Counted from the stretch's first letter, positions 266 to 11,660 are shown. The stretch is DNA of 11,666 nucleotides from Bacteroidota bacterium (GCA_029570835.1 JAKPTX010000128.1:1-11666), one strand, 5' to 3'. Translations and numbers: made by a program. The notes: generated from the letters alone by a model not told the origin.

Positions 266-1993
266 TTAGAAGTTTTCAAGTATAAATTTCACTATTTTTT
301 CTTTACGCAGACTGATTTTTTCTTTGTCCCAAATTTCCGATTCCACTGTCATTTTTTGAATTTCTCGTTGTTGTCCAAGATGATTATACGAACTTCTTTT
401 CTCGCTAAATGGTCTGTTCCCTACAGAACAATTGTGAGATTTTGAAAGAAGCAAATAATTTCCTAAACAGTCAATGTATTGGTTTCTAAATTCTTCATCA
501 TACTCACAATAACCTGCTGCAATTGGTTCTCCATTTGTTGGTGTTTGTGGTGCGATATGTTCTAATTCAGGACTTTCTATATTGTCAAAACGAGTCAAAG
601 AATAACCGTTTTTTCCTTGGTTTTCAGGATGATTTTCGTATTTCCAAAGTAAAAATTTGGCAGTTGCATGATGCATTCCGCCTTGTATTGATTTCTCAAA
701 TTCAGTCGTATTCCAATAAGCCCACCACCAATCAGTTGTGTTTTTCATCCAAACAATTCTATCAATTATGGGCTTTAAGTCTGGTTGTTCTGCTTTAAAT
801 TCTTGGTAAACACCATTTATTCTTGAAGTCATTTCTGCTCTTGTTCCAATAAGTCTATGGCGCAAAACCAATGATTCCATTGATGAACAAATCTTGCAGA
901 TTTCTTTTGTTTGTAGTCCGAAAGTATATGCTTTAATAACAAATGGGATTGCTATTGCAAAACCACCTAAAGTAATAATTGAATGAATCTCGATGTTTTC
1001 TCGTTCATCTTTCCCGAAGAATGTAGTCAAATGCTCAAAACTTACTGCAAGCGAATTTGTAAATGATTTGATAAAAGGAATTGGATTGCTTTCTGATAAT
1101 AGTTTATTGATTTTATCAATTGCATTTGATTCCCAAAGTGAATTGAAATGAACCCGCAAAGTGTAAACTAAAACATCATCTTCGTCTATTTTGTATTCAA
1201 TCGAAGATATTGATTTATAAATTTTTTCAAAGCGGTTTTTTATTTCTTCAATCAAACTGTCTTTTTCTTCACCACCGTACAGGTGAACATTGAACATGAA
1301 TTGGGCTTTAATAATTTCCAAATTTGAAGGCTTTTTCCCTCGATTGTTCTGGAAAATGAACATCTGAATTGCCTCTGATTCATTTTTTACGGGATGAGTA
1401 GTACAAGTTGCCTCGCTAACTGTTTTTAGCATTTTTATCAAAAACTGTTCGTCTTTATCTGCAAACGATTTTGAAAAAAAATCAAATGCTTTTACAATTC
1501 TTCTTGCTGATTCAGTTTCAATACCGTTTTTGTCTTTTTTTGTTTGATTTAAAACATAATCAATAAACAACTGTTTGTCATAATCTACAGTAGCAAATGT
1601 GTAATTAGACCCCAACTTAACCATACTTTTATAAAGAAAATCTTGCTCCTCCGTTAGAGTTCTTAATTCTTTCAGTCTCGTAAATAAAGCTGAAAGGAAG
1701 ATAATAATAGTGGTTAATCTTTGTTGCCCGTCAATTACACCAAAATTCCTACCCCCTTTTTCTTCAAAAAGGAAATGCCCGAAATAATAGGGACTTTCAA
1801 CTAAACTACGGTTATAATCAATTAAATCTTGAAGAAACACATCTGTATGTGTTTTTGTGTTTTTATTTTTATCATCTGATGGGGTTTCCCAAGAATAAGC
1901 ACGTTGATATGCAGGAACAAATATTTTGTTTCCTGCCAACATATTATTTATCGTTGTTGATGGTTCCATAAAATTATTGTCATTTTTTTGCAA
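266..1993 (-). CDS. GmrSD-family protein: an N-terminal DUF262 (ParB-like NTPase) domain fused to a C-terminal DUF1524 (His-Me/HNH-like nuclease) domain. Likely a type IV (modification-dependent) restriction endonuclease or BrxU/SspE-like defence nuclease. The ORF opens with TTG at 1993, and the first ATG (at 1969, residue 9) is the more plausible start.
   Basis: The translated ORF has the DUF262 hallmarks FVPAYQRAYSWE and VIDGQQRLTT near the N-terminus. The DUF1524 hallmarks ELEHIAPQ and GNYLLLSKSHN lie near the C-terminus. The long ORF is AT-rich with an A-rich leader. Confidence 0.8.
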   Translation of the reverse strand: MQKNDNNFMEPSTTINNMLAGNKIFVPAYQRAYSWETPSDDKNKNTKTHTDVFLQDLIDYNRSLVESPYYFGHFLFEEKGGRNFGVIDGQQRLTTIIIFLSALFTRLKELRTLTEEQDFLYKSMVKLGSNYTFATVDYDKQLFIDYVLNQTKKDKNGIETESARRIVKAFDFFSKSFADKDEQFLIKMLKTVSEATCTTHPVKNESEAIQMFIFQNNRGKKPSNLEIIKAQFMFNVHLYGGEEKDSLIEEIKNRFEKIYKSISSIEYKIDEDDVLVYTLRVHFNSLWESNAIDKINKLLSESNPIPFIKSFTNSLAVSFEHLTTFFGKDERENIEIHSIITLGGFAIAIPFVIKAYTFGLQTKEICKICSSMESLVLRHRLIGTRAEMTSRINGVYQEFKAEQPDLKPIIDRIVWMKNTTDWWWAYWNTTEFEKSIQGGMHHATAKFLLWKYENHPENQGKNGYSLTRFDNIESPELEHIAPQTPTNGEPIAAGYCEYDEEFRNQYIDCLGNYLLLSKSHNCSVGNRPFSEKRSSYNHLGQQREIQKMTVESEIWDKEKISLRKEKIVKFILENF

Positions 1994-2038: not shown

Positions 2039-2347
2039 TTATCCAGCTCTTTCACTCAACTTTTTGAATGTTTTATCATATGTTCCTATCCAACTTCCCT
2101 TTTTGAAAATTATAGTAGAACCAGAAGCATTACGAAAGTCGCCAAGTGAAGAAACAGCAGCATCTTTAATTTTTTTGCCTGTTTCGTCATATGTACTATA
2201 CCAACTTCCTTTTACAAAAACGATAAAATCACTACCGATACCACAAAGGTCTCCAACTGATGAAGCTGCAATATCTTTAATTTTCTTACCATTACCGTCA
2301 AAAACTGTGTACCAGCTACCTTTTAATTGAACGTCTGAAATTGCCAT
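2039..2347 (-). CDS. Small protein built from three tandem copies of a roughly 36-aa repeat (KGSW-Y/I-x-x-YD-x-x-GKKI...). It resembles WG/KWG-type beta-repeat proteins, and its function is unknown.
   Basis: The ATG at 2345-2347 was confirmed and the leader is A-rich. The repeat KGSWYTVFDGNGKKIKD / KGSWYSTYDETGKKIKD / KGSWIGTYDKTFKKL is visible in the translation. It is also visible as a 108-bp DNA periodicity. Confidence 0.6.
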   Translation of the reverse strand: MAISDVQLKGSWYTVFDGNGKKIKDIAASSVGDLCGIGSDFIVFVKGSWYSTYDETGKKIKDAAVSSLGDFRNASGSTIIFKKGSWIGTYDKTFKKLSERAG

Positions 2348-2630: not shown

Positions 2631-2960
2631 CTAATTCTTTAAGATAAAACTATTTTTCTTATCTGTTAATGAATGTTTTGGGTTTAAAGAACTTTGTATA
2701 TCTGAAATCAATTCATCAATGTTTGAGATTGATTTTCTACGTGCATTATTCCAATCCCAAGTATTGCTATCAATATATTCAGTAATCTCAATTAAATTAT
2801 AATTTGTATTGAAATCATAACTTTTGCACCAGTCATTCCTATAATTATTTATACAAAACAGCCAAAGCATTCCGTCATTCTTAATCATGTAGGATTCGGT
2901 ATTTATACCTGTAAGTCCAAATATCTTAGAAAGTCTATCCTTAATTTCATTTATTTTCAT
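2631..2960 (-). CDS. Hypothetical 109-aa protein, Asn/Trp-rich with no recognisable domain. It is the second gene of a two-gene AT-rich cassette.
   Basis: The ATG at 2958-2960 was confirmed. It lies 18 nt downstream of the 251-aa ORF on the same strand, and the stop lies 10 nt from the outer stem of C1 (25 nt from the C1 3' arm). Confidence 0.5.
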   Translation of the reverse strand: MKINEIKDRLSKIFGLTGINTESYMIKNDGMLWLFCINNYRNDWCKSYDFNTNYNLIEITEYIDSNTWDWNNARRKSISNIDELISDIQSSLNPKHSLTDKKNSFILKN

Positions 2961-2978
2961 AACAATACCTTTTTATTT

Positions 2979-3734
2979 TTAGTTTTTTATCACAGAAATT
3001 ATAGCCTCATGAACCTTATTATTGCTTTCTAGTAATTGAATTAAATTACAAGATGAAAGAGAATTCGTGTCCGAAAAAGAATTGTATCGCCAATATTCAA
3101 ACTGATGACTCATTAGCCACTTTTCGTTCTTAAATATATCCAATAATTCAGATGGTATATTTTCTGAAAATGCAAAAACCTTCAGACTCTCAATAATTTC
3201 ATCACAAATCTTCTTGGGTTTGTCGGAATCATAATCATCAGACTTAGGAACATTATCCTTGTAATGTTTCAATTTTTCGATATTAGATTTTAACAAATCC
3301 ACTAACTTTACAATTGCATCTTTGTCAATACTTGACATAGAATTATCTGTTAAAGAACTCTTTATGTAATCTTTTATTTTGTTCTTGATTGAATCTTGTT
3401 CGTTTCCTGAAATCACTATTTGATAATCAATTGTTTTCTTTGCATCAGATTTTTGAATTAATTTTGAATTATGTCCTCTACGGCAATTATCAAGCGTTTC
3501 ATCTGGATTAAAGAATGAAACATATACCTCTATTGGGCTATCTTGATTACCTGCCCATGATTGTGAGAAGTAATTATCTAATTTTTGAAACAATCCAGTA
3601 ATGCTTTTTGCTTTAATATTATGCTCTATTGCAAAATTAATTACTCTATAATCAGGGAAATCGTAATCCCCCTCAATAAGTTTTGTGGTTACTTCACCAC
3701 CAATCAAATTTAATTCAAATTGTGAGTTTTTCAT
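2979..3734 (-). CDS. Hypothetical 251-aa protein, Lys/Asn/Asp-rich and apparently soluble, with no recognisable motif. It is the first gene of the AT-rich two-gene cassette between elements C2 and C1.
   Basis: The ATG at 3732-3734 was confirmed. The ORF is long and uninterrupted, and element C2 ends 77 nt upstream of it. Confidence 0.55.
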   Translation of the reverse strand: MKNSQFELNLIGGEVTTKLIEGDYDFPDYRVINFAIEHNIKAKSITGLFQKLDNYFSQSWAGNQDSPIEVYVSFFNPDETLDNCRRGHNSKLIQKSDAKKTIDYQIVISGNEQDSIKNKIKDYIKSSLTDNSMSSIDKDAIVKLVDLLKSNIEKLKHYKDNVPKSDDYDSDKPKKICDEIIESLKVFAFSENIPSELLDIFKNEKWLMSHQFEYWRYNSFSDTNSLSSCNLIQLLESNNKVHEAIISVIKN

Positions 3735-4147: not shown

Positions 4148-5122
4148 TTAGTTAAACTTTCCTGTGATTTGTGAAATATCAAATTTGCCGTCAATGTTTT
4201 GAATTTCGATTTTTCCATTCAGAATATCGAAGAAGAAATCGCGAATACGGTCGAAGGTCAAAATGGCGGGCTTTCCGTCTTTTCCAATACCAATATCGTA
4301 AGTTTTCAGCAGTTGTAAACCGAGCGAGGCAGCTGTCAAAAGAAAATGATTTTGAAACTTATCGGTATCCAACAAGTCGGCTGCCAACACTTTACCTATT
4401 ACAGTGTAACTGCGCAACGTTTTCTGAATTTCCTCATTGGTGAGCGTAGTTTTTACCTCATCGGTAGTAATATTCATTTCAATTTTACCTGAATTTTGTG
4501 CCTGTGGAAGTCCTTTGTAAAGTGCGCCCAAGTCAGCCAAACTCAAATTGTAAAGCCTTGCATCGGCGGTAGCAATCATCGGCTCAATTGAAAACGCACT
4601 CGGCAAAAGCAAGGAAATACTGCCTTCTACCCGCACCGACGGCGTGTTGAACGTGCCGACAAGGCTGTTTTTGAGGTCGATTTGCTGCGTAGCAAACACA
4701 CCGCCAACCACTATACTGTTTTCCAACACGACATCATCTGCATAAATGCTGCCCGCCACAAAAGCATTGTAAAGCGCTACACTCTTGGCGTTTATATCGG
4801 AATGGAAAACGAGTTTGGCGTTTTCTGCCCGCGAAACAAGGCTGTTTGCCGAGCCAACGCTCTTTTTGAACGCGATATTGCCTTTTGCCTCGCTGTTGAC
4901 ATAAAGTTCCAATTGCGTGAAAACAGCACCTTGAATTTCGAGGTCGCCGTTTTGGATTTCTAACTTGTGGGCATAAACCGGTCCTTCAACTACCGCATTG
5001 CCCTGCACTGTAATAGTGCGATTGAGTTCCGCGGCCTTTTCGGGCAAAATAGAGCCGCGCACCAGGTTGTCTTTCAATTGTATGTTGCTTTCGTTAAAAC
5101 GAAGTTCTTTTAACTCTTTCAT
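4148..5122 (-). CDS. A 324-aa protein with a bactofilin-like (DUF583-type) beta-helical repeat region at its N-terminus and a distinct C-terminal domain. It is the last gene of the six-gene operon.
   Basis: The ATG at 5120-5122 was confirmed. Residues about 35-175 show the alternating-hydrophobic pattern with Gly/Asn turns (VQGNAVVEGPVYAHKLEIQNGDLEIQGAVF...SIVVGGVFATQQIDL...SVRVEGSISLL), typical of bactofilin beta-helix rungs. Confidence 0.55.
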   Translation of the reverse strand: MKELKELRFNESNIQLKDNLVRGSILPEKAAELNRTITVQGNAVVEGPVYAHKLEIQNGDLEIQGAVFTQLELYVNSEAKGNIAFKKSVGSANSLVSRAENAKLVFHSDINAKSVALYNAFVAGSIYADDVVLENSIVVGGVFATQQIDLKNSLVGTFNTPSVRVEGSISLLLPSAFSIEPMIATADARLYNLSLADLGALYKGLPQAQNSGKIEMNITTDEVKTTLTNEEIQKTLRSYTVIGKVLAADLLDTDKFQNHFLLTAASLGLQLLKTYDIGIGKDGKPAILTFDRIRDFFFDILNGKIEIQNIDGKFDISQITGKFN

Positions 5123-5141: not shown

Positions 5142-6176
5142 TTAAACTGATTTTATTGAGCTGAAATTTAGCATTTTAACAATATTTTCCCGCACACGAT
5201 TTGTGTGTGTATCGCCTGTGGAATAACGATTGCTGACTTCCGCGTTGAAATAACGCCCGATTTTCTCGGCATTGTCTTTGGGAAGGTTTCCCCAAGTTTT
5301 TGCCTGAAAATCAGAAATCATTTCGTTTGCCTGCATTTTTGGCAAAAAATCGGCTTGATACAGATTTTTGTCAATCTGACTTTTTTCGTTTTGCGTTTCG
5401 ATAAAGCAGACAGGCGAATAATGCACGGCTGCAACGCTCTCGTTCAGAACGGTTTGATTGATTGTGTCGTTCAAGCGTTTCTGTTTCACGAGAAAAGTAT
5501 TTGCCTTGCCGATAGTGTCAAACGCGCGTTTTTTGGCAATAGAGGCAGAAAGTCGCACCTGTAAATCGCCGCTCTCCGCGCCAAAAACGGCCACAGTACT
5601 TGCCAAATCGCCTGTCAAGGTGCGTCCTGCATGCTTGTCGCTCTGATTTTTGAAGACGAAAGCAGGCTTGTCCAATTCGTAAATACGGTTGGAAAGTTCG
5701 TTGTCCAAGTCCTCAAAAATTTTCAGGTAACGGCTAGAAATACGCTGATAGTCGCCTTGCATCTGCGTTTGTTTTTCCACACAACGTTTTGCCATTGAGT
5801 GCAGGTGTGCCAAATGGGAATCTAAACGGCTCGAAAGTTCTGCAATCTGCTGGCTGATTTCAGAGCGAATTGTTTTGAAAAAACCTTCTACAATGGTACT
5901 ACCCACTTTCTTTGCGTTGCTGTCGATAGATACAATTTGTGCCGTTTCGGTAGCAACGACTGCACCAGTGAGAACATTTACAGAATTGTTACAATTCGCT
6001 ACACTATTGTCGAAAGGAGTTGTTTCAACATCAATATTTACCTGTACATCTTCGTAAGCCGTACCGCTGTATGGTACACTTCCGCTATATGGTTTTCCAT
6101 CTACAGAACCAGAATAACTGACTCGACCCGAATAGTGAACTGCTATTTGTTTATGAAAACTTTGTCTATAACTCAT
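5142..6176 (-). CDS. Hypothetical 344-aa protein, mainly alpha-helical, a paralogue of the upstream 308-aa protein. It has a Ser/Gly/Tyr-rich N-terminus (YSGRVSYSGSVDGKPYSGSVPYSG).
   Basis: The ATG at 6174-6176 overlaps the TGA stop of the upstream gene (ATGA overlap). It shares GFFKTIRSEISQQIAEL...SSRYLKIF...ELDKP with the 308-aa ORF. Confidence 0.7.
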   Translation of the reverse strand: MSYRQSFHKQIAVHYSGRVSYSGSVDGKPYSGSVPYSGTAYEDVQVNIDVETTPFDNSVANCNNSVNVLTGAVVATETAQIVSIDSNAKKVGSTIVEGFFKTIRSEISQQIAELSSRLDSHLAHLHSMAKRCVEKQTQMQGDYQRISSRYLKIFEDLDNELSNRIYELDKPAFVFKNQSDKHAGRTLTGDLASTVAVFGAESGDLQVRLSASIAKKRAFDTIGKANTFLVKQKRLNDTINQTVLNESVAAVHYSPVCFIETQNEKSQIDKNLYQADFLPKMQANEMISDFQAKTWGNLPKDNAEKIGRYFNAEVSNRYSTGDTHTNRVRENIVKMLNFSSIKSV

Positions 6177-7099
6177 AATTGTTCGTTTTTAAGGGTTTGA
6201 AAATTATTAGCCATAAACAGTTTGTTAGCCATATCTTTTACCCGCTGCGAACTGCCCGAATTAGAAAGATATTTGCTGAACTCGCTTTTTACCTCCTTGT
6301 CGATTTCTTTTGACGGTTGCCACTCAATATTTTCAATATTGGAATTAACCGTGTTTTTAATGGTTGATTGAGTTTGTTTGCTCAACTGTGCATTATTTAA
6401 TTGAATATCAATATTTTTGCTGTCGAATTTATCAAAATTACACTCTAAAATTACCACAGGAACGGACAGGGTAGAATTTTCAACATTGCCTTTTTCAAGC
6501 AAAATTCTGTCAGTCAATTTTTTCTGTTCCGACATATCGGCAAGAAAGTTTGTCATTGAGTTGATAACTCTCAAACCTCGAAATTTTACATTCGAGGCAA
6601 TGATCTTCTGACTTGCCGCCAGCGATTCGAGTTGCGAAACAGGGACGGTTGCCGTCAGGTATTTTGTACGGTTAGATACCTTTTCCAATTCTTTAACTGC
6701 AAAATCGACAGTTGGTTTATCCAATTCAAAAATTCGCTGTTTCAGATTTTGATTCAATCCGTTGAAAAGTTTCAGATAACGAGAGGAAATCATATTATAG
6801 TCGCGTTCCATTCTGCCGCGTATTGCCAAAAGTTGCTTTTTTTGTGCGTTGAGCTGCATTAAATGCGAATCGACATCGCTTTGCAGTTTGGCTATTTTCT
6901 GCGAAATTTGAGAACGTATAAGCGTGTAAAAGCCTTTATTTACGTTGTCGCAAACGTGGTCGGCGGCTTTCTTTTCTGCCAAAACTACGGCAGTTTGCAT
7001 TGCTACAACCGCAGTTGTAGTCCCCTTGATATGATTGGACACTGAATGAATTTCCTGTGCCATCGGGTTGGTATCTACTACGCAATCTATATATGCCAT
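6173..7099 (-). CDS. Hypothetical 308-aa protein, mainly alpha-helical with a coiled-coil, the first of two tandem paralogues.
   Basis: The ATG at 7097-7099 lies 4 nt downstream of the 752-aa gene stop. It shares GFYTLIRSQISQKIAKL...SSRYLKLF...ELDKP with the 344-aa ORF. Confidence 0.7.
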   Translation of the reverse strand: MAYIDCVVDTNPMAQEIHSVSNHIKGTTTAVVAMQTAVVLAEKKAADHVCDNVNKGFYTLIRSQISQKIAKLQSDVDSHLMQLNAQKKQLLAIRGRMERDYNMISSRYLKLFNGLNQNLKQRIFELDKPTVDFAVKELEKVSNRTKYLTATVPVSQLESLAASQKIIASNVKFRGLRVINSMTNFLADMSEQKKLTDRILLEKGNVENSTLSVPVVILECNFDKFDSKNIDIQLNNAQLSKQTQSTIKNTVNSNIENIEWQPSKEIDKEVKSEFSKYLSNSGSSQRVKDMANKLFMANNFQTLKNEQL

Positions 7100-7103
7100 A
7101 ATC

Positions 7104-9362
7104 TTAAATTTTTATTTCGTTATCATTATCAAATTCGCCCTGATTTTCAAGAATATCATCGATTGCCTGCTCGCGATCGAATTCGTCTGCATCGTATTCC
7201 AAACCGAGTTCGTCAAGAATTTGCTGTAAAGACTCATCGTCCAAGTCGTTCAACTCATCTTTGGAATATTGATATTCTTCGGTTTCGTCATCCTCTTCTT
7301 GTTCTTCGTCTTCAGAAACTTCTTCCTCTTCTTCGTTGTCGTCTTCATCCTGTTCTTCGTCTTCAGAAAGTTCATCCTCTTGAATTTCGGAATCGTCTTC
7401 TGTAAGTTCTTCTTCGGAAATTACTGCCTGTTCTACAACAATTTCCTCATCTGCTTGCTCGTCCTCCGCCTCTTCGTTCAGGAGATTCCGACCTTCGTCG
7501 GAATAACCGTCGAATGGAGTTTCTTCTTCGCGTTCTTTCAGGTTTTCCAACGCATTTTTGGCAATAATCGGCAAATTGAGTGCGATATGCTCAAAAGTAA
7601 TGTCTTCTACATTGGGCGTAGGTGGCAATTCCGAAGATTTAGCAAACAGCGGATTAACCAAAGCCAAAGGCTTACGGCGGTCGTTGAGGTCACGTACTTC
7701 ATCGGCGGCAACTGCCACTTCATTGGAATACCCATCGCGAAGTTTTGCATCGTAATATTCGATATGTCCAAATTTATCGGCTTTCTGGTCAATATCTTCT
7801 TTGAGACGTTCCATATAATCTTCAAAATCCGATTGAGTCCGCTTAAATTCGTTTGACTGCATTTCGAATGCAATTAATGTTTCGGCAGCATTATCAACCA
7901 CATCAACAACGGTGCTGTCAAGGTTACCCTCCGACTGTACCATAGTATCTTCGGTGCGTTGCAACGAAACCAAGGTATTATAGGCAGCCACATATTCCTG
8001 CAAACTTTTTCCCATATCTCGAATAATATCAGCGGCTTCGGCACGGTTGCGACCATAAAAATCTTCGCAGTTTTCGTGCCAACGATTCAGATACTCAATT
8101 TTTTGGTCTTTGATATGATTGTAAATTTTAAGGCGTTCAATGCGGTTTTCAGCCATAAGATTTTGAACAACAGGTGTAACGATTTCCTCGTAAATCTGGT
8201 GTACGCCAAAAGGCAAATTGGTTGTGCTGCCATCTTCCGCCGTCCACATTCCCGAAACGAGATTATATTTTACCCGCGAACTCTGTTTGAGTTGGAAAGG
8301 CTCGTATCCCTGCACCGATTCGGTATAATCGAACTTCTCGTTGCGGATACGTTCGATTTCTTCGTGCTCCAAAAGCGGAGAATAGTGATTGTAAGGCGAT
8401 TTGAGAATTTGATACAAAACTTTGTTCGATTCAAAAATTATTTTATCGGTAGAAGCTACCTTCAAGGCAGAAATTGCTTGTACAGAATTTGCCATTGTGA
8501 TCATTAGCCCCTTCAAAACGTCCTCAAACTGTTGTGTTTTGTTCGACAATGAATCTTTTAACCTATTAAGTTCCTGAAATTTATTTACACTACCCGCATA
8601 TTTTTCCTTGTTGAAAACAGGAATAACCGGTGCGTTTTCAGGAATTTCCGTAGTCGCAAATTCATTTAGAAATTGTAGATATTCGCATTTATCGGCAACT
8701 AATGGTAACGATACCGAAGTGGTATCCAAGTCGTCCATACAGTAAGAAATGGTTCGCAGAGAGCGTTCCAATTTGCCGAAATAATCGTGCTGGTTGATTT
8801 CTTGAATAGAAGTAGAATACTCATCTGTTTCAATGGTTTCCGTGTCTTGCGAGGTTTCCACAATCGGAGCTTCCGACGACAAATTTTCAAGGTCAGCGAT
8901 TGTTTCAATGAGCAAATCGTTTTGCCGCGAAAGTTGCAATGTAATTTCCGACTCATTAACCTTGCCTGTGTAATCGACAATGAAACTTTTGTCTTCGTAC
9001 TTGATTTGATCGGCAATGGGAACATAAGCCACGCCCAACTTGCTCACTTTGTAGTCACGGAAAATCTCGCTATGCTGTTTTTTAAATTCGGCAATGCGCA
9101 TGTCTTTGTCCGCAATCTGTTTTCCCAACCCGCTTTTTTTTATGAAATACACAAAGAACAGAATGATTGTGAGAAACCAAACCCACAACTTGGAAATTTC
9201 TGCCTGCAACGCCGTTTTTTCTTCTTCGAGAACGGCAATTTGCTTTTCAATTCGTTCCTCTTCGGCAACGATTTTTTCAGCCGCCTGGCTGTAATAGTTG
9301 AACAATATCTTCGCCTGGTCTTGATAGACATTGTTCGATTCTGGAAAAATTTTACCTGTCAT
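7104..9362 (-). CDS. A 752-aa single-pass membrane protein. It has an N-terminal coiled-coil, one TM helix (LWVWFLTIILFFVYFI), a large central domain and a roughly 130-aa poly-acidic (Asp/Glu-rich) C-terminal tail with internal repeats.
   Basis: The ATG at 9360-9362 was confirmed and the ORF is long and uninterrupted. The tail reads SEDEEQDEDDNEEEEEVSEDEEQEEDDETEE, and the DNA shows a roughly 57-bp repeat at 7288-7382. Confidence 0.75.
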   Translation of the reverse strand: MTGKIFPESNNVYQDQAKILFNYYSQAAEKIVAEEERIEKQIAVLEEEKTALQAEISKLWVWFLTIILFFVYFIKKSGLGKQIADKDMRIAEFKKQHSEIFRDYKVSKLGVAYVPIADQIKYEDKSFIVDYTGKVNESEITLQLSRQNDLLIETIADLENLSSEAPIVETSQDTETIETDEYSTSIQEINQHDYFGKLERSLRTISYCMDDLDTTSVSLPLVADKCEYLQFLNEFATTEIPENAPVIPVFNKEKYAGSVNKFQELNRLKDSLSNKTQQFEDVLKGLMITMANSVQAISALKVASTDKIIFESNKVLYQILKSPYNHYSPLLEHEEIERIRNEKFDYTESVQGYEPFQLKQSSRVKYNLVSGMWTAEDGSTTNLPFGVHQIYEEIVTPVVQNLMAENRIERLKIYNHIKDQKIEYLNRWHENCEDFYGRNRAEAADIIRDMGKSLQEYVAAYNTLVSLQRTEDTMVQSEGNLDSTVVDVVDNAAETLIAFEMQSNEFKRTQSDFEDYMERLKEDIDQKADKFGHIEYYDAKLRDGYSNEVAVAADEVRDLNDRRKPLALVNPLFAKSSELPPTPNVEDITFEHIALNLPIIAKNALENLKEREEETPFDGYSDEGRNLLNEEAEDEQADEEIVVEQAVISEEELTEDDSEIQEDELSEDEEQDEDDNEEEEEVSEDEEQEEDDETEEYQYSKDELNDLDDESLQQILDELGLEYDADEFDREQAIDDILENQGEFDNDNEIKI
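7288..7382. repeat. Imperfect tandem repeat (about 57-bp period) inside the acidic-tail coding region of the 752-aa gene. It is a potential slippage or length-variation site.
   Basis: tcatcctcttcttgttcttcgtcttcagaaacttc (7288-7322) versus tcatcctgttcttcgtcttcagaaagttc (7345-7373). It encodes LSEDEEQDEDD / VSEDEEQEEDD. Confidence 0.5.
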
Positions 9363-9381: not shown

Positions 9382-10092
9382 TTAGTTTGAATAAATACTC
9401 TTTCTGATTTGATAAATTCTTTCTGCTTTTTTAAGATTGCTACCGATTGCCTCCTCGTTCATCGAATAATTGGAAATTGCAAACGCAATATCGTTGATAA
9501 CACGAATAAATTGCTGTTCCAAACCATGCGCCTCTGCATTTTCGGTTGGTGAAATAAACCGCAAGCTGTCTTCAAGTGTATTTATTTTGCGAATAAAATA
9601 TTCGGGCAAGTTCGGCAAATCGTTCATTTTGTCTTTCAAATCGCGTATTGCCGTTTTCATTTCATTAATACCGTTACGGTTAAATGTTTCCTGCTGATAC
9701 ACTTCCTGAACTTTGTTGCCTGAATGAATAACGGCAATAAAACCAAGCAGTAACAGAAAAAACAGTCCGCAATGAATGATAAACTGCAAAGCAAACGTCC
9801 ATTCGTAAGCAAGGTTTCCAATCAGCATTACAGCAATAGCGGTAATAGCGTAGAGCCAAGTGAAAAACCATCGTAAGCCAAGCGAACCGACTTTTTTACC
9901 CGATTTGTCGTTCAAATCAACCCAAGGAACAAGAATGTCGAGAAAAAGCAGTCCGTAAATGACAGACGAAACCACGATATTTAGCACGAGAATATCGGTT
10001 GCCAAACTGCCGCGAAACAGTAGAAACGCAGCAATAATAATTGCCTCTCCGCCAAGCAGCGCAATAAATGATAATATTTTCTTTGTATCCAT
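9382..10092 (-). CDS. A 236-aa integral membrane protein with four predicted TM helices in the N-terminal roughly 130 aa, followed by a roughly 100-aa soluble helical domain. No recognisable family.
   Basis: The ATG at 10090-10092 was confirmed. Four hydrophobic stretches (ILSFIALLGGEAIIIAAFLLF, LVLNIVVSSVIYGLLFLDILV, WFFTWLYAITAIAVMLIGNLAY, FALQFIIHCGLFFLLLLGFIAVI) are visible in the translation. Confidence 0.7.
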   Translation of the reverse strand: MDTKKILSFIALLGGEAIIIAAFLLFRGSLATDILVLNIVVSSVIYGLLFLDILVPWVDLNDKSGKKVGSLGLRWFFTWLYAITAIAVMLIGNLAYEWTFALQFIIHCGLFFLLLLGFIAVIHSGNKVQEVYQQETFNRNGINEMKTAIRDLKDKMNDLPNLPEYFIRKINTLEDSLRFISPTENAEAHGLEQQFIRVINDIAFAISNYSMNEEAIGSNLKKAERIYQIRKSIYSN

Positions 10093-10115: not shown

Positions 10116-11381
10116 TTATCTCTTATTTCCACATTTTGGGCAAAATTTCACACTCGGAGGTAATGTTGTTCCGCAACGGCTACAACTGTCGCCGGAAGAA
10201 ACCTGTTTTCCGCAGTTTCCGCAGAAAGTTGCCCCAGCCACCATTGGAGCGTTGCAATGCGGACAGTTTCCGCCACCCGATTGTAACGGTGTTCCGCAAC
10301 TTACGCAACGTTTGGCGTTTTTATCATTGTCCGTTCCGCATTTTGGGCAAGGGTTGTATTCATCGCCACAATGCGGGCAAAATCGGGTTGTGCTGGGGAA
10401 CTTTTTGGCGCAGTTGGAACAATACACCATTTTAACCTGTTGTTGCTGCTCTTGATTAAAATTGCCGCCTTGCTGATTATTGCCGCCAAAATTAGGCTGA
10501 TTGAATTGTGGCTGCATCATTCCGCCACCAACAGCGCCGCTGCCACCCATTCCACCCATCATATTCATTGCCATCAGACCGCCAATAAGTCCGCCGTTGC
10601 CATTTCCAAAACCATCAACAGCATTGTTAGCGGTATTGAACATTTGTTCTTGTTGCCAAGTGTGCCCTGTAATTGACATCGACGCTTGCGTTGCAATGGC
10701 TTCCGCTACCTTTCTGCCTTCTTCTGTGGATTTATCAATATCAATCGTTGTAATATTAAATTGCAACAATTCCAAACCCAAGTTGTCCCAAAATGGATTT
10801 AGAACACCTTTTAAATATTCAGACAATTCGTCCAAATAAGCGGATAAATACTTAAAACCGACACGGTGTTTAATCACATATTGAGCAATTTGCGACTTGG
10901 TTTTTGTAGAAAATTCTCCGAAAAACTGATTAGTCAAATCATCCTGCGAAAATTCGGTTTTCGTGCCTACAGATTTTATCAGGAATTTTTCCGCATCATT
11001 GACTTTCAAACCATAACGCCCGCCTGCTACAAGCGGCAGTTGCGTATTGTAATCGGGGTCGTGTATCGGCATTTTGCTTACCGCCCAATCAATGCTGAAC
11101 GTTTGAATTTTGTTTACAAACCACACCTCCGCCGTAAACGGATTTTTCCCACCGAAAGGTATTCCGAACAGCGATCGCAAAATCGGCAAGTTTTCGGTGT
11201 TTAAGGTGTGTTTCCCCGGACCGAATTTACCTACAACCTGCCCTTTTGAGAACAATACCGCTTCTTGTGATTCCTGCACAACGAGTTGCGTGTAGGTACT
11301 CAAATTAGTTTCGGGGAAACGCCAAGCGTAAATGGTTTTACTCCCCTGCGGCGACCATCTGACTAAATCAATTATTGCCAT
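10116..11381 (-). CDS. SPFH/Band-7-like domain protein (YdjI / PF13421-type N-terminal domain) fused through a Gly/Met/Gln/Asn-rich low-complexity linker to four C-terminal zinc ribbons (8 CxxC pairs). It is the first gene of the operon.
   Basis: The ATG at 11379-11381 was confirmed. The N-terminus IIDLVRWSPQGSKTIYAWRFP...LVVQESQEAVLFSKGQVVGKFGPGKHTL...AEVWFVN matches the SPFH Band_7_1 family signature as I recall it. The C-terminus reads CSNC..CPHC, CPKC..CVSC, CPHC..CGNC, CSRC..CPKC. Confidence 0.75.
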   Translation of the reverse strand: MAIIDLVRWSPQGSKTIYAWRFPETNLSTYTQLVVQESQEAVLFSKGQVVGKFGPGKHTLNTENLPILRSLFGIPFGGKNPFTAEVWFVNKIQTFSIDWAVSKMPIHDPDYNTQLPLVAGGRYGLKVNDAEKFLIKSVGTKTEFSQDDLTNQFFGEFSTKTKSQIAQYVIKHRVGFKYLSAYLDELSEYLKGVLNPFWDNLGLELLQFNITTIDIDKSTEEGRKVAEAIATQASMSITGHTWQQEQMFNTANNAVDGFGNGNGGLIGGLMAMNMMGGMGGSGAVGGGMMQPQFNQPNFGGNNQQGGNFNQEQQQQVKMVYCSNCAKKFPSTTRFCPHCGDEYNPCPKCGTDNDKNAKRCVSCGTPLQSGGGNCPHCNAPMVAGATFCGNCGKQVSSGDSCSRCGTTLPPSVKFCPKCGNKR

Positions 11382-11500
11382 ATCTTTTTGATTTTAAAGT
11401 TTGTATTTATAAATTTACTCTTTTCGTGCGAAGGGAAAAATGGCTCTTTGACTTTTGCGAAGCGTTGACTTGTGTGTTGGGCAAAAGGTAATGTGCCATT
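11382..11500 (-). promoter_or_regulatory. Leader and promoter region of the six-gene operon. It has no Shine-Dalgarno sequence. A palindromic TAAATTTA (11410-11417) is a weak -7-like candidate. Direct repeats TTGACTT (11448-11454 and 11465-11471) and GCGAAG (11428-11433 and 11457-11462) are candidate regulator sites.
   Basis: The repeats were read directly from the sequence. No canonical TAnnTTTG or TTTG pair at correct spacing was found, so the exact promoter is unresolved. Confidence 0.3.
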
Positions 11501-11603
11501 TTCGTGGTGGTTTCTAAAAACAAAAAAAGCGGGTCGGTAAAAAATAAAACTTTATCGGGACGGCTGGTGTAGTAGGCAGTCATTCCGATTTGATTTTCTT
11601 CTT

Positions 11604-11660
11604 TGTCTTTGTATGTCGTCTTGTCAATTTTCATGTCGCTGTCTTTTTTTTAGGCTTGTT
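11604..11660. repeat. TGTC-rich, T-run containing segment (gtatgtcgtcttgtcaattttcatgtcgctgtcttttttttaggcttgttggtaac). It is a direct repeat of the segment at 2445-2492.
   Basis: The 9-mer gtatgtcgt is shared exactly. Four tgtc motifs are shared in register, as are tgtctttttt and the terminal ttgg...taac. In the other copy this segment is followed immediately by element C1. Confidence 0.4.

What the first reader, a model, noticed from the sequence alone, without database searches (positions are those of the whole stretch)
10116..11381. SPFH/Band-7 domain fused to a G/M/Q-rich disordered linker and four zinc ribbons
The N-terminal roughly 230 aa carry the YdjI-type SPFH signature (WRFP..LVVQESQEAVLF..GKFGPGKHTL..AEVWFVN). 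About 60 aa of Gly/Met/Gln/Asn low complexity follow, then eight CxxC motifs arranged as four zinc ribbons in roughly 100 aa.

In Bacillus, the zinc-ribbon partner (YdjG) and the SPFH protein (YdjI) are separate polypeptides in the PspA operon. Here they appear fused. A prion-like Q/N/G/M linker between a membrane scaffold and a nucleic-acid or protein-binding zinc module is unusual.
Basis: partly seen in the sequence, partly recalled or inferred. Interest (0 to 1): 0.55.

Follow-up and report, generated by a model that had tools for sequence, protein, structure and literature searches.

The report
YdjI-type SPFH protein with zinc ribbons
The gene encodes an ordinary member of the YdjI/SamI family of membrane-scaffold proteins, in which an SPFH domain, a glycine/methionine-rich segment and C-terminal zinc ribbons are normally joined in one chain; the less expected result is that it leads a conserved six-gene operon of otherwise unannotated proteins.

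Summary
ORF 10116-11381 (minus strand, 421 aa) has a PF13421 SPFH domain, a G/M/Q/N-rich stretch and eight CxxC motifs forming four zinc ribbons.

The interpretation as an unusual fusion of YdjI with YdjG is wrong. [quoted passage not shown] The exact protein is already deposited as "SPFH domain-containing protein". At least 592 stretches in a species-representative genome collection encode relatives. Ribbon number varies from 1 to 5, and Cys-free relatives carry SHOCT or GYF_2 instead.

The "linker" has two parts: a family-wide conserved G/M block and a short, variable Q/N spacer.

Two things go beyond the finding:
- The gene is always followed by a homologous 4-TM protein, which is the likely membrane anchor.
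- In Bacteroidota, Spirochaetota, some Clostridia and an Acidobacteriota MAG it heads a collinear six-gene operon with no PspA. The five partners have no Pfam, PDB or PADLOC match above threshold.

I read it as a soluble SPFH scaffold recruited to the membrane by the 4-TM partner. The protein is ordinary. The operon is modestly interesting and, as far as I could find, undescribed.

The parts
10116..11381 (-). Gene for the 421-aa SPFH / G-M block / four-zinc-ribbon protein (YdjI/SamI-type); first gene of the operon
   Evidence: ORF. Pfam hits. A 100% identical deposited protein, P0001, is named 'SPFH domain-containing protein'.
10722..11324 (-). SPFH domain (residues 20-220)
   Evidence: PF13421 at 119.4 bits and PF01145 at 30.5 bits. 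Mean top-residue frequency is 0.70 in 43 orthologues.
10479..10721 (-). Post-SPFH helix region plus the conserved G/M-rich block (residues 221-301; ...ITGHTWQQEQMF...GNGNGGLIGGLMAMNMMGGMGGSGAVGGGMMQPQFNQPNFGG)
   Evidence: Kept almost unchanged in homologues of 70-100% identity. The family-wide consensus is N.G..GG..GAG.G.GMG...G. Conservation is 0.65 for residues 221-258, 0.58 for the G/M block (259-291) and 0.46 for 292-301. It is the most hydrophobic segment of the protein, but its KD19 of 0.97 is below transmembrane level.
10428..10478 (-). Variable Q/N-rich spacer (residues 302-318)
   Evidence: Lowest conservation in the protein: 0.31, with 14% gaps. Length and sequence vary among close homologues.
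10119..10427 (-). Array of four zinc ribbons (residues 319-421; eight CxxC)
   Evidence: CxxC positions. DZR and Zn_Ribbon_1 each match in four stretches. Ribbons 1 and 2 are the best conserved part of the protein (0.72 and 0.77). Ribbon 3 is dispensable (0.39, 24% gaps) and is absent in the three-ribbon orthologues.
9382..10092 (-). g236: 4-TM protein with a cytoplasmic helical tail; conserved partner and probable membrane anchor
   Evidence: Hydrophobic segments. It lies directly downstream in 48 of 50 group-1 loci. It is homologous to the gene directly downstream of the five-ribbon relatives in other phyla (hhalign probability 99.3%, E 3.7e-20, full length). No Pfam family.
7104..9362 (-). 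g752: single-pass membrane protein with coiled coils; highly conserved core and a variable acidic tail
   Evidence: One TM segment at about residues 59-77. Orthologues score E = 0 to 1e-115 (one shortened ORF, L046, at 2e-78) in every locus long enough to contain it. No Pfam, PADLOC or PDB relative. The AF2 model is poor, with pLDDT 48.6. The acidic tail is absent in several orthologues.
6173..7099 (-). g308: long coiled-coil protein with a small C-terminal alpha/beta domain; paralogue of g344
   Evidence: 32% identity to g344, E 9e-33. The AF2 model has helices 11-143 and 155-201, pTM 0.25. Structure searches return only generic coiled-coil matches. All database relatives are 'hypothetical'.
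5142..6176 (-). g344: paralogue of g308; overlaps g308 by 4 nt
   Evidence: The median g308>g344 spacing is -4 nt across 45 loci.
4148..5122 (-). g324: bactofilin-like beta-helix protein with an extra C-terminal domain; last gene of the operon
   Evidence: Weak Bactofilin PF04519 hits in 16 of 26 orthologues, best E 2.8e-5, all below the gathering score. Strongly conserved, at E 1e-80 or better even in Treponema. A 413-nt gap follows it.

Best explanation
The ORF encodes a YdjI/SamI-type SPFH protein. It is a soluble, cytoplasmic scaffold with no membrane anchor of its own. Its SPFH domain is followed by a conserved glycine/methionine-rich segment, a short variable Q/N spacer and an array of four zinc ribbons. 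Shown here: the domain composition, the family-wide nature of this architecture, and the invariable pairing with a homologous 4-TM protein encoded immediately downstream. Inferred by analogy with B. subtilis SamI, which needs the membrane proteins SamG/SamH to reach the membrane and there restrains their signalling and recruits PspA: the SPFH domain oligomerises beneath the membrane; the 4-TM partner (g236) tethers it there and may be regulated by it; and the G/M block plus the ribbon array is a protein-interaction or oligomerisation module rather than a nucleic-acid binder, because SHOCT or GYF_2 modules occupy the same position in relatives. In this lineage the pair is embedded in a six-gene operon with a single-pass coiled-coil protein, two paralogous coiled-coil proteins and a bactofilin-like protein. 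Together these most likely build a membrane-associated scaffold for envelope maintenance or stress response that works without an operon-encoded PspA.
For: Identity: PF13421 at 119 bits, PF01145 at 30.5 bits, and four DZR/Zn_Ribbon_1 stretches. No hydrophobic segment reaches TM level. The published YdjI/SamI architecture is SPFH + low complexity + Zn finger, and it depends on membrane partners. Family norm: 98 of 124 representatives have C-terminal CxxC motifs, and at least 592 stretches in a species-representative genome collection encode relatives. The G/M consensus is family-wide. The C-terminal slot is interchangeable: 7 of 10 Cys-free members have SHOCT and 1 has GYF_2, in line with Eberhardt 2013. 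Partner: g236 is homologous to the directly downstream gene of distant five-ribbon relatives (hhalign 99.3%). That gene is present in 35 of 40 such loci and in 48 of 50 group-1 loci. Operon: 45 of 45 sufficiently long group-1 loci are complete and collinear, with median gaps of 15, 19, 12, -4 and 13 nt, while the flanks differ.
Against: No experiment or structure exists for any protein of this operon. No solved structure of a PF13421 member was found; stomatin appears only at E about 0.08. No PspA is encoded nearby, so the best-studied output of SamI cannot simply be transferred. g236 is not homologous to SamG or SamH as they are described (ZnR-NTF2-TM and TPM domain), because it gives no Pfam hit. 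The anchoring role is therefore an analogy. What the zinc ribbons bind is unknown. The models of g752 and g308 were too poor to assign folds. The architecture census is biased towards ribbon-bearing proteins, because the query itself contained ribbons.
Confidence: 0.6

Rival explanations
1. One reading: a lineage-specific fusion of the normally separate SPFH protein (YdjI) and zinc-ribbon partner (YdjG), joined by a prion-like linker, which couples a membrane scaffold to a nucleic-acid-binding module.
For: YdjG does contain zinc ribbons. Zinc ribbons can bind nucleic acids in general. The ribbon array carries a net positive charge, mean +6.3 in group 1.
Against: YdjI itself already carries the low-complexity region and the Zn finger. 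The architecture is widespread and old. The ribbons here are DZR-type and C-terminal, whereas YdjG is described as N-terminal ZnRs followed by an NTF2-like domain and a TM segment. SHOCT or GYF_2 replaces the ribbons in relatives. Most of the 'linker' is conserved sequence.
Confidence: 0.03
2. The six-gene operon is an anti-phage or abortive-infection system located in defence islands, with the SPFH protein acting as a membrane sensor or effector scaffold.
For: In the window a GmrSD type IV restriction gene lies downstream. Other copies sit beside EcoRI-like methylase/GmrSD, type I and type III R-M genes, integrases and transposases. Strong restriction-enzyme and DRT hits occur among the flanking genes. 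The distribution across phyla is patchy.
Against: None of the six proteins hits a PADLOC model. The flanks are heterogeneous, with no family in more than 4 of 147 flanking genes. Many copies lie among housekeeping, efflux or Sus-like genes. The control flanks of the unrelated group 2 hit even more PADLOC models, 193 against 107. The block is not found on catalogued plasmids or phages. No nuclease, NTPase or other effector domain is detectable.
Confidence: 0.1
3. An HflK/C- or stomatin/NfeD-like SPFH cage that regulates a membrane protease or channel.
For: The protein belongs to the SPFH superfamily (PF01145 at 30.5 bits; weak stomatin matches). JGI auto-annotation calls it 'membrane protease subunit (stomatin/prohibitin family)'.
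Against: It has no N-terminal TM segment or hairpin. It has no long coiled-coil wall after the SPFH domain. No protease, NfeD or channel family is present in the operon or recurs in the flanks. PF13421 is a separate branch from HflK/C.
Confidence: 0.07

Closest known systems
Bacillus subtilis YdjI / SamI (pspA-ydjGHI = pspA-samGHI operon)
   Same: [quoted passage not shown] Both are encoded next to integral membrane proteins.
   Different: This protein has four ribbons, where the papers describe a single Zn-finger motif. No pspA, no TPM-domain YdjH and no ZnR-NTF2 YdjG lie nearby. The partner here is an unannotated 4-TM protein, followed by four further conserved genes. I could not retrieve the YdjI sequence, so the comparison rests on published descriptions.
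SHOCT-terminated PF13421 proteins (Eberhardt et al. 2013)
   Same: They share the SPFH domain and the G-rich segment. They score 150-170 bits on PF13421 and align with this protein throughout the N-terminal 290 residues.
   Different: Their C-terminal module is one or two SHOCT domains instead of zinc ribbons.
Five-ribbon SPFH proteins of Paenibacillus, Cohnella, Clostridia and Deltaproteobacteria ('group 2')
   Same: They have the same overall layout at 33-38% identity over residues 1-420. A homologous 4-TM partner is encoded immediately downstream.
   Different: Most have ten CxxC motifs. They have a further small TM plus zinc-ribbon gene downstream. They lack the g752/g308/g344/g324 genes.
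Archaeal SPFH-coiled-coil-zinc-ribbon proteins in 'Meth_adaptin' ESCRT loci (Makarova et al. 2024)
   Same: An SPFH domain is combined with a zinc ribbon and linked by gene context to membrane-remodelling machinery.
   Different: They have a coiled coil instead of a G/M block, and sit in an archaeal ESCRT/adaptin context. Homology beyond the SPFH domain was not tested.
HflK/C, QmcA, flotillin and stomatin cages
   Same: They belong to the SPFH superfamily and oligomerise at membranes.
   Different: Those proteins have their own TM segment or hairpin and a long coiled-coil wall. This protein has neither.

Membership tests
PF13421 (Band_7_1) / YdjI-SamI-type SPFH proteins | SPFH domain matching PF13421 above the gathering score | tested here: met
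   119.4 bits against a cut-off of 24, residues 20-220.
PF13421 (Band_7_1) / YdjI-SamI-type SPFH proteins | No intrinsic membrane anchor (soluble SPFH protein) | tested here: met
   No 19-residue window exceeds KD 1.6; the maximum is 0.97, in the G/M block. This is a hydropathy rule only; no TM predictor was available.
PF13421 (Band_7_1) / YdjI-SamI-type SPFH proteins | [quoted passage not shown] | tested here: met
   Composition. Four DZR stretches. The same feature is described for YdjI.
PF13421 (Band_7_1) / YdjI-SamI-type SPFH proteins | Encoded in a pspA operon together with YdjG (ZnR-NTF2-TM) and YdjH (TPM domain) | tested here: not met
   No PspA_IM30, TPM or other Pfam family in the five downstream genes. 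PspA is not among the families listed for the flanks. This feature defines the Bacillus operon rather than the protein family.
PF13421 (Band_7_1) / YdjI-SamI-type SPFH proteins | Membrane recruitment through co-encoded integral membrane proteins; recruits PspA | not testable with these tools
   Only gene linkage to the 4-TM protein g236 can be shown.
Double zinc ribbon (PF12773 DZR) | Paired CxxC...CxxC ribbons matching the model above the gathering score | tested here: met
   95.5 bits against 27.3, in four stretches. Eight regularly spaced CxxC motifs. The best PDB profile hit is the DZANK1 double zinc ribbon, E 6e-5. Zinc binding itself was not tested.
Classical cage-forming SPFH proteins (HflK/C, stomatin, flotillin) | N-terminal TM segment or hairpin and a long C-terminal coiled coil | tested here: not met
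   There is no N-terminal hydrophobic segment. Only about 35 residues separate the SPFH domain from the G/M block. No structure prediction was run for this protein.
Prion-like Q/N-rich disordered linker | Compositionally biased, poorly conserved, freely drifting sequence | tested here: inconclusive
   This holds for residues 302-318 (conservation 0.31) but not for the G/M block 259-291 (0.58) or for the preceding 221-258 (0.65). No disorder or prion predictor was available.
Known anti-phage defence systems (PADLOC-DB 2.0) | Match of any operon protein to a defence-system model | tested here: not met
   Zero hits for all six proteins. Only the unrelated downstream GmrSD gene matches.
Bactofilin (PF04519), for the operon's last gene g324 | Match above the gathering score (27.9 bits) | tested here: inconclusive
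   23.3 bits for the window protein. 16 of 26 orthologues give sub-threshold hits, best E 2.8e-5.

The most novel reading that the evidence does not exclude
The SPFH-zinc-ribbon gene is the lead gene of an undescribed, PspA-independent six-gene membrane-scaffold system. The genes are the SPFH-ZnR protein, a 4-TM partner, a single-pass coiled-coil protein, two paralogous coiled-coil proteins and a bactofilin-like protein. The system is kept strictly collinear in Bacteroidota, Spirochaetota, some Clostridia and an Acidobacteriota MAG. It would be a new kind of bacterial sub-membrane cytoskeletal or envelope-stress apparatus, or less likely a defence apparatus, built around a YdjI-type scaffold. 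The two-gene core (SPFH-ZnR plus the 4-TM protein) would be the ancestral functional unit of the multi-ribbon branch of the family.
Probability: 0.5. Interest if true: 0.55.

Novelty: new member of a known kind. Interest (0 to 1): 0.3.

Why it matters
The protein itself matters little. It is one more YdjI/SamI-type SPFH protein, and the supposed fusion is the family's published architecture.

Three results may be useful:
- The G/M-rich "low-complexity" segment is conserved sequence, and ribbons 1 and 2 are as conserved as the SPFH domain. Both are therefore functional parts to target in SamI-type studies.
- A 4-TM protein is the universal genomic partner of the multi-ribbon SPFH proteins across phyla. 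This gives a concrete candidate for how these anchor-less scaffolds reach the membrane outside Bacillus.
- In Bacteroidota and Spirochaetota, where Psp/Sam biology is essentially unstudied, the pair sits in a six-gene operon of conserved proteins with no annotation. Cultured carriers exist (Capnocytophaga sputigena NCTC11653, Segatella hominis, Barnesiella sp. An55, Treponema zioleckii), so the operon can be tested genetically.

Tried and rejected
1. Electrostatic pairing between the basic ribbon array and the very acidic tail of g752. Rejected: the tail is missing or short in many orthologues, including Capnocytophaga and several Treponema.
2. Defence-island location. Some copies adjoin R-M genes or mobile elements. 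However, the flanks are heterogeneous, and control flanks hit more PADLOC models. Not supported.
3. Carriage on plasmids or phages. tblastn of g752 found nothing in either collection. The SPFH protein gave only five weak phage matches, at 24-27% identity and limited to the SPFH domain.
5. Fold of g752. There are no PDB relatives, and the AF2 model has pLDDT 48.6, so no fold search was run on it.
6. Naming the 4-TM partner family. There is no Pfam family for g236 or for its group-2 homologues.
7. The first genome scan with the 35-sequence alignment failed because no stretch was conserved enough. It was repeated with 10 sequences.
8. Finding the B. subtilis YdjI sequence among the fetched proteins, using the termini deduced from published primers. 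None was found.
9. Confirming from the literature the COG4260 name that I recall ('...contains C-terminal Zn-ribbon domain'). It was not found and remains an unverified recollection.
10. The promoter/terminator scan was uninformative for this organism type. There are no Rfam or tRNA features in the window.

Full report
OBSERVATION

The window has an ATG-to-stop ORF at 10116..11381 on the minus strand, encoding 421 aa.

Pfam assigns the following:
- Band_7_1 (PF13421) at residues 20-220, 119.4 bits against a cut-off of 24.
- Band_7 (PF01145), 30.5 bits.
- DZR (PF12773), 95.5 bits in four stretches.
- Zn_Ribbon_1 (PF13240), 77.3 bits in four stretches.

All 16 cysteines lie in the last 101 residues. 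They form eight CxxC motifs at 321/335, 345/359, 373/387 and 400/414, which makes four CxxC-x10-CxxC ribbons. The only correction is that the gene is on the minus strand.

IS THE FUSION UNUSUAL? NO.

The literature contradicts this:
- Scholz et al. [quoted passage not shown]
- Baur et al. [quoted passage not shown]
- Ravi et al. [quoted passage not shown]
- Makarova et al. 2024 note an archaeal SPFH protein with a coiled coil and a zinc ribbon.

The databases agree:
- The exact 421-aa sequence is deposited as "SPFH domain-containing protein". The 120 best clusters (70-100% identity; Tannerella, Paludibacter, Dysgonamonadaceae, Prevotellaceae, Barnesiella, Capnocytophaga) all have the same Pfam architecture, with eight or nine CxxC motifs.
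- In an exhaustive search of 50%-identity cluster representatives, 1593 proteins match at E of 1e-10 or better. Of the 124 listed representatives of at least 300 aa, 98 have C-terminal CxxC motifs: 41 have four, 29 have six and about 20 have eight or more. Their linkers are nearly always G/A/Q/M-rich. The caveat is that the full-length query favours ribbon-bearing hits.
Full-length matches come from Bacteroidota, Spirochaetota, Bacillota, Desulfobacterota-like MAGs, Synergistota, Acidobacteriota and a Gallionella.
- Cys-free relatives are not truncated. Seven of ten carry SHOCT and one carries GYF_2 at the C-terminus. This matches the report that SHOCT is most commonly associated with PF13421 (PMC3581485).

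THE "LINKER"

It is not a uniform prion-like spacer. Among close homologues the stretch ITGHTWQQEQMF...GNGNGGLIGGLMAMNMMGGMGG.GAVGGGMMQPQ[YF]NQP.FGG is almost invariant, and only the roughly 20 residues before the first Cys vary. Across the whole family the consensus N.G..GG..GAG.G.GMG...G persists.

Mean top-residue frequency in 43 orthologues of 45-100% identity:

| Region | Frequency |
|---|---|
| SPFH domain | 0.70 |
| Residues 221-258 | 0.65 |
| G/M block | 0.58 |
| Q/N spacer | 0.31 |
| Ribbon 1 | 0.72 |
| Ribbon 2 | 0.77 |
| Ribbon 3 | 0.39 |
| Ribbon 4 | 0.62 |

The G/M block is the most hydrophobic part of the protein, but its KD19 of 0.97 is well below transmembrane level. Its resemblance to glycine-zipper or GroEL-tail (GGM) sequences is my own analogy and was not tested.

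CONTEXT

Downstream on the same strand lie five genes with gaps of 23, 19 and 4 nt, a 4-nt overlap and a 19-nt gap, followed by a 413-nt gap:
- g236 has four TM helices and a helical tail.
- g752 has one TM segment and coiled coils; in this copy it also has a highly acidic tail.
- g308 and g344 are paralogues (32% identity, E 9e-33).
- g324 gives a weak Bactofilin hit.

Contigs carrying the identical SPFH protein keep this block while their flanks differ: GmrSD/methylase, integrase/IS91, type I R-M, or an rRNA-adenine-dimethylase-family (RrnaAD) methyltransferase gene. Homologues from Barnesiella, Capnocytophaga and a 3.5-Mb Bacteroidota contig keep it in unrelated surroundings.

Among the 80 genome loci plus these, the relatives fall into two groups.

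Group 1 comprises every locus whose SPFH protein is at least 45% identical to the query. It includes Bacteroidota, Treponema/Spirochaetia, uncultured Clostridia, Butyrivibrio, a Terracidiphilus (Acidobacteriota) MAG and one MAG labelled actinobacterium. All 45 loci with enough downstream sequence have the complete, collinear block. The other 5 are cut off by contig ends.

Group 2 comprises the relatives of 33-38% identity (Paenibacillus, Cohnella, Clostridia and others). They mostly have five ribbons and lack the block. In 35 of 40 such loci the next gene is a multi-TM protein with a helical tail, usually followed by a small TM plus zinc-ribbon protein.

Profile-profile comparison shows that this next-gene family and g236 are homologous over their full length (probability 99.3%, E 3.7e-20). 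The conserved core is therefore a two-gene module, the SPFH-ZnR protein plus a 4-TM protein. The six-gene operon is a lineage-specific elaboration of it.

No PspA is encoded near either group.

THE PARTNERS

None has a Pfam (above threshold), NCBIfam, PADLOC or PHROG assignment. None has a PDB relative by profile search. Their database relatives are all "hypothetical protein". One UniRef label, "TerB-C domain-containing protein", is not reproduced by Pfam on the window protein.
- g324 is probably a bactofilin-like beta-helix; 16 of 26 orthologues give sub-threshold Bactofilin hits.
- g308 is modelled as long helices plus a small alpha/beta domain (pTM 0.25). It matches only generic coiled coils.
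- The g752 model is unusable (pLDDT 48.6).

MECHANISM

Shown: the domain composition, the absence of a TM anchor, the interchangeable C-terminal adaptor slot, the strict linkage to a 4-TM protein, and the operon structure.

Inferred by analogy with SamI, which needs SamG/SamH for membrane association, self-interacts and restrains SamGH signalling:
- The SPFH domain oligomerises under the membrane.
- g236 tethers it there and may be regulated by it.
- The G/M block plus the ribbons mediate protein contacts.

The coiled-coil and bactofilin-like partners suggest a membrane-associated scaffold for envelope maintenance or stress. I put the identity of the protein at about 0.95 and this mechanism at about 0.45.

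RIVALS
- A defence system is not excluded, since some copies adjoin R-M genes. It is unsupported, however: there are no PADLOC hits, the flanks are heterogeneous, the control flanks hit more PADLOC models, and the block is absent from plasmids and phages (0.1).
- An HflK/C-like protease regulator lacks any protease partner and lacks the TM and coiled-coil features (0.07).

NOVELTY AND SCORE

The finding as stated is a new member of a known kind. It differs from YdjI mainly in ribbon number and in gene context. The operon and the universal 4-TM partner appear undescribed in the searchable literature; no paper in the library mentions SPFH together with bactofilin. Absence from that library is weak evidence. 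Interest is 0.3 overall. For the reading that this is a new PspA-independent six-gene membrane-scaffold system, I give probability 0.5 and interest 0.55 if true.

Noticed in passing
window 266-1993 (-): A GmrSD-family type IV (modification-dependent) restriction enzyme. Pfam gives GmrSD_N 4.9e-27 and GmrSD_C 1.5e-17. The best PADLOC hit is HEC-06, 1.7e-39. It is unrelated to the operon and absent from most other copies of the block.
   Followed up: partly
window 2039-2347 (-): A 102-aa ORF made of three ~33-aa repeats (KGSWY.T.D..GKKIKD.A.SS.GD), immediately upstream of the GmrSD gene. It is also called as a gene in L001. No family search was run on it.
   Followed up: no
window 2631-3734 (-) and 11407-11634 (-): ORFs of 109, 251 and 75 aa have no significant match in the libraries scanned. 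They occur only in contigs nearly identical to the window and are not part of the conserved block.
   Followed up: partly
L028:3685-5800 and L038:11043-13210 (Candidatus Limisoma g752 orthologues): In these two genomes the g752 orthologue ends, after its acidic tail, in its own zinc ribbon (CSQCGAPVDADSNFCEECGAKLK). A ribbon has therefore been added independently to a second protein of the system.
   Followed up: no
window 7104-7250 (-) (g752 residues ~700-740): A short C-terminal helical motif (LNDLDDESLQQILDELGLEYDADEFDREQAIDDILENQ) follows the acidic tail. It is the only C-terminal part modelled with confidence (pLDDT about 85) and recurs in L011, L014, L042 and L048.
   Followed up: no
L054-L090, genes +1 and +2 after the SPFH gene: The five-ribbon SPFH proteins of Paenibacillus, Cohnella and Clostridia are followed by a g236-like 4-TM protein and then by one to three small TM proteins that end in a CxxC...CxxC ribbon. 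This is a three-part module with no Pfam families.
   Followed up: partly
window 5142-6176 (-), g344 residues 15-40: The N-terminus of g344 has a short YSG-repeat stretch (HYSGRVSYSGSVDGKPYSGSVPYSGTAY) that is absent from its paralogue g308.
   Followed up: no
P0444 (Dysgonomonas termitidis g752 orthologue): UniRef labels it 'TerB-C domain-containing protein'. No such Pfam hit is found for the window protein, so the label may rest on a weak match.
   Followed up: no
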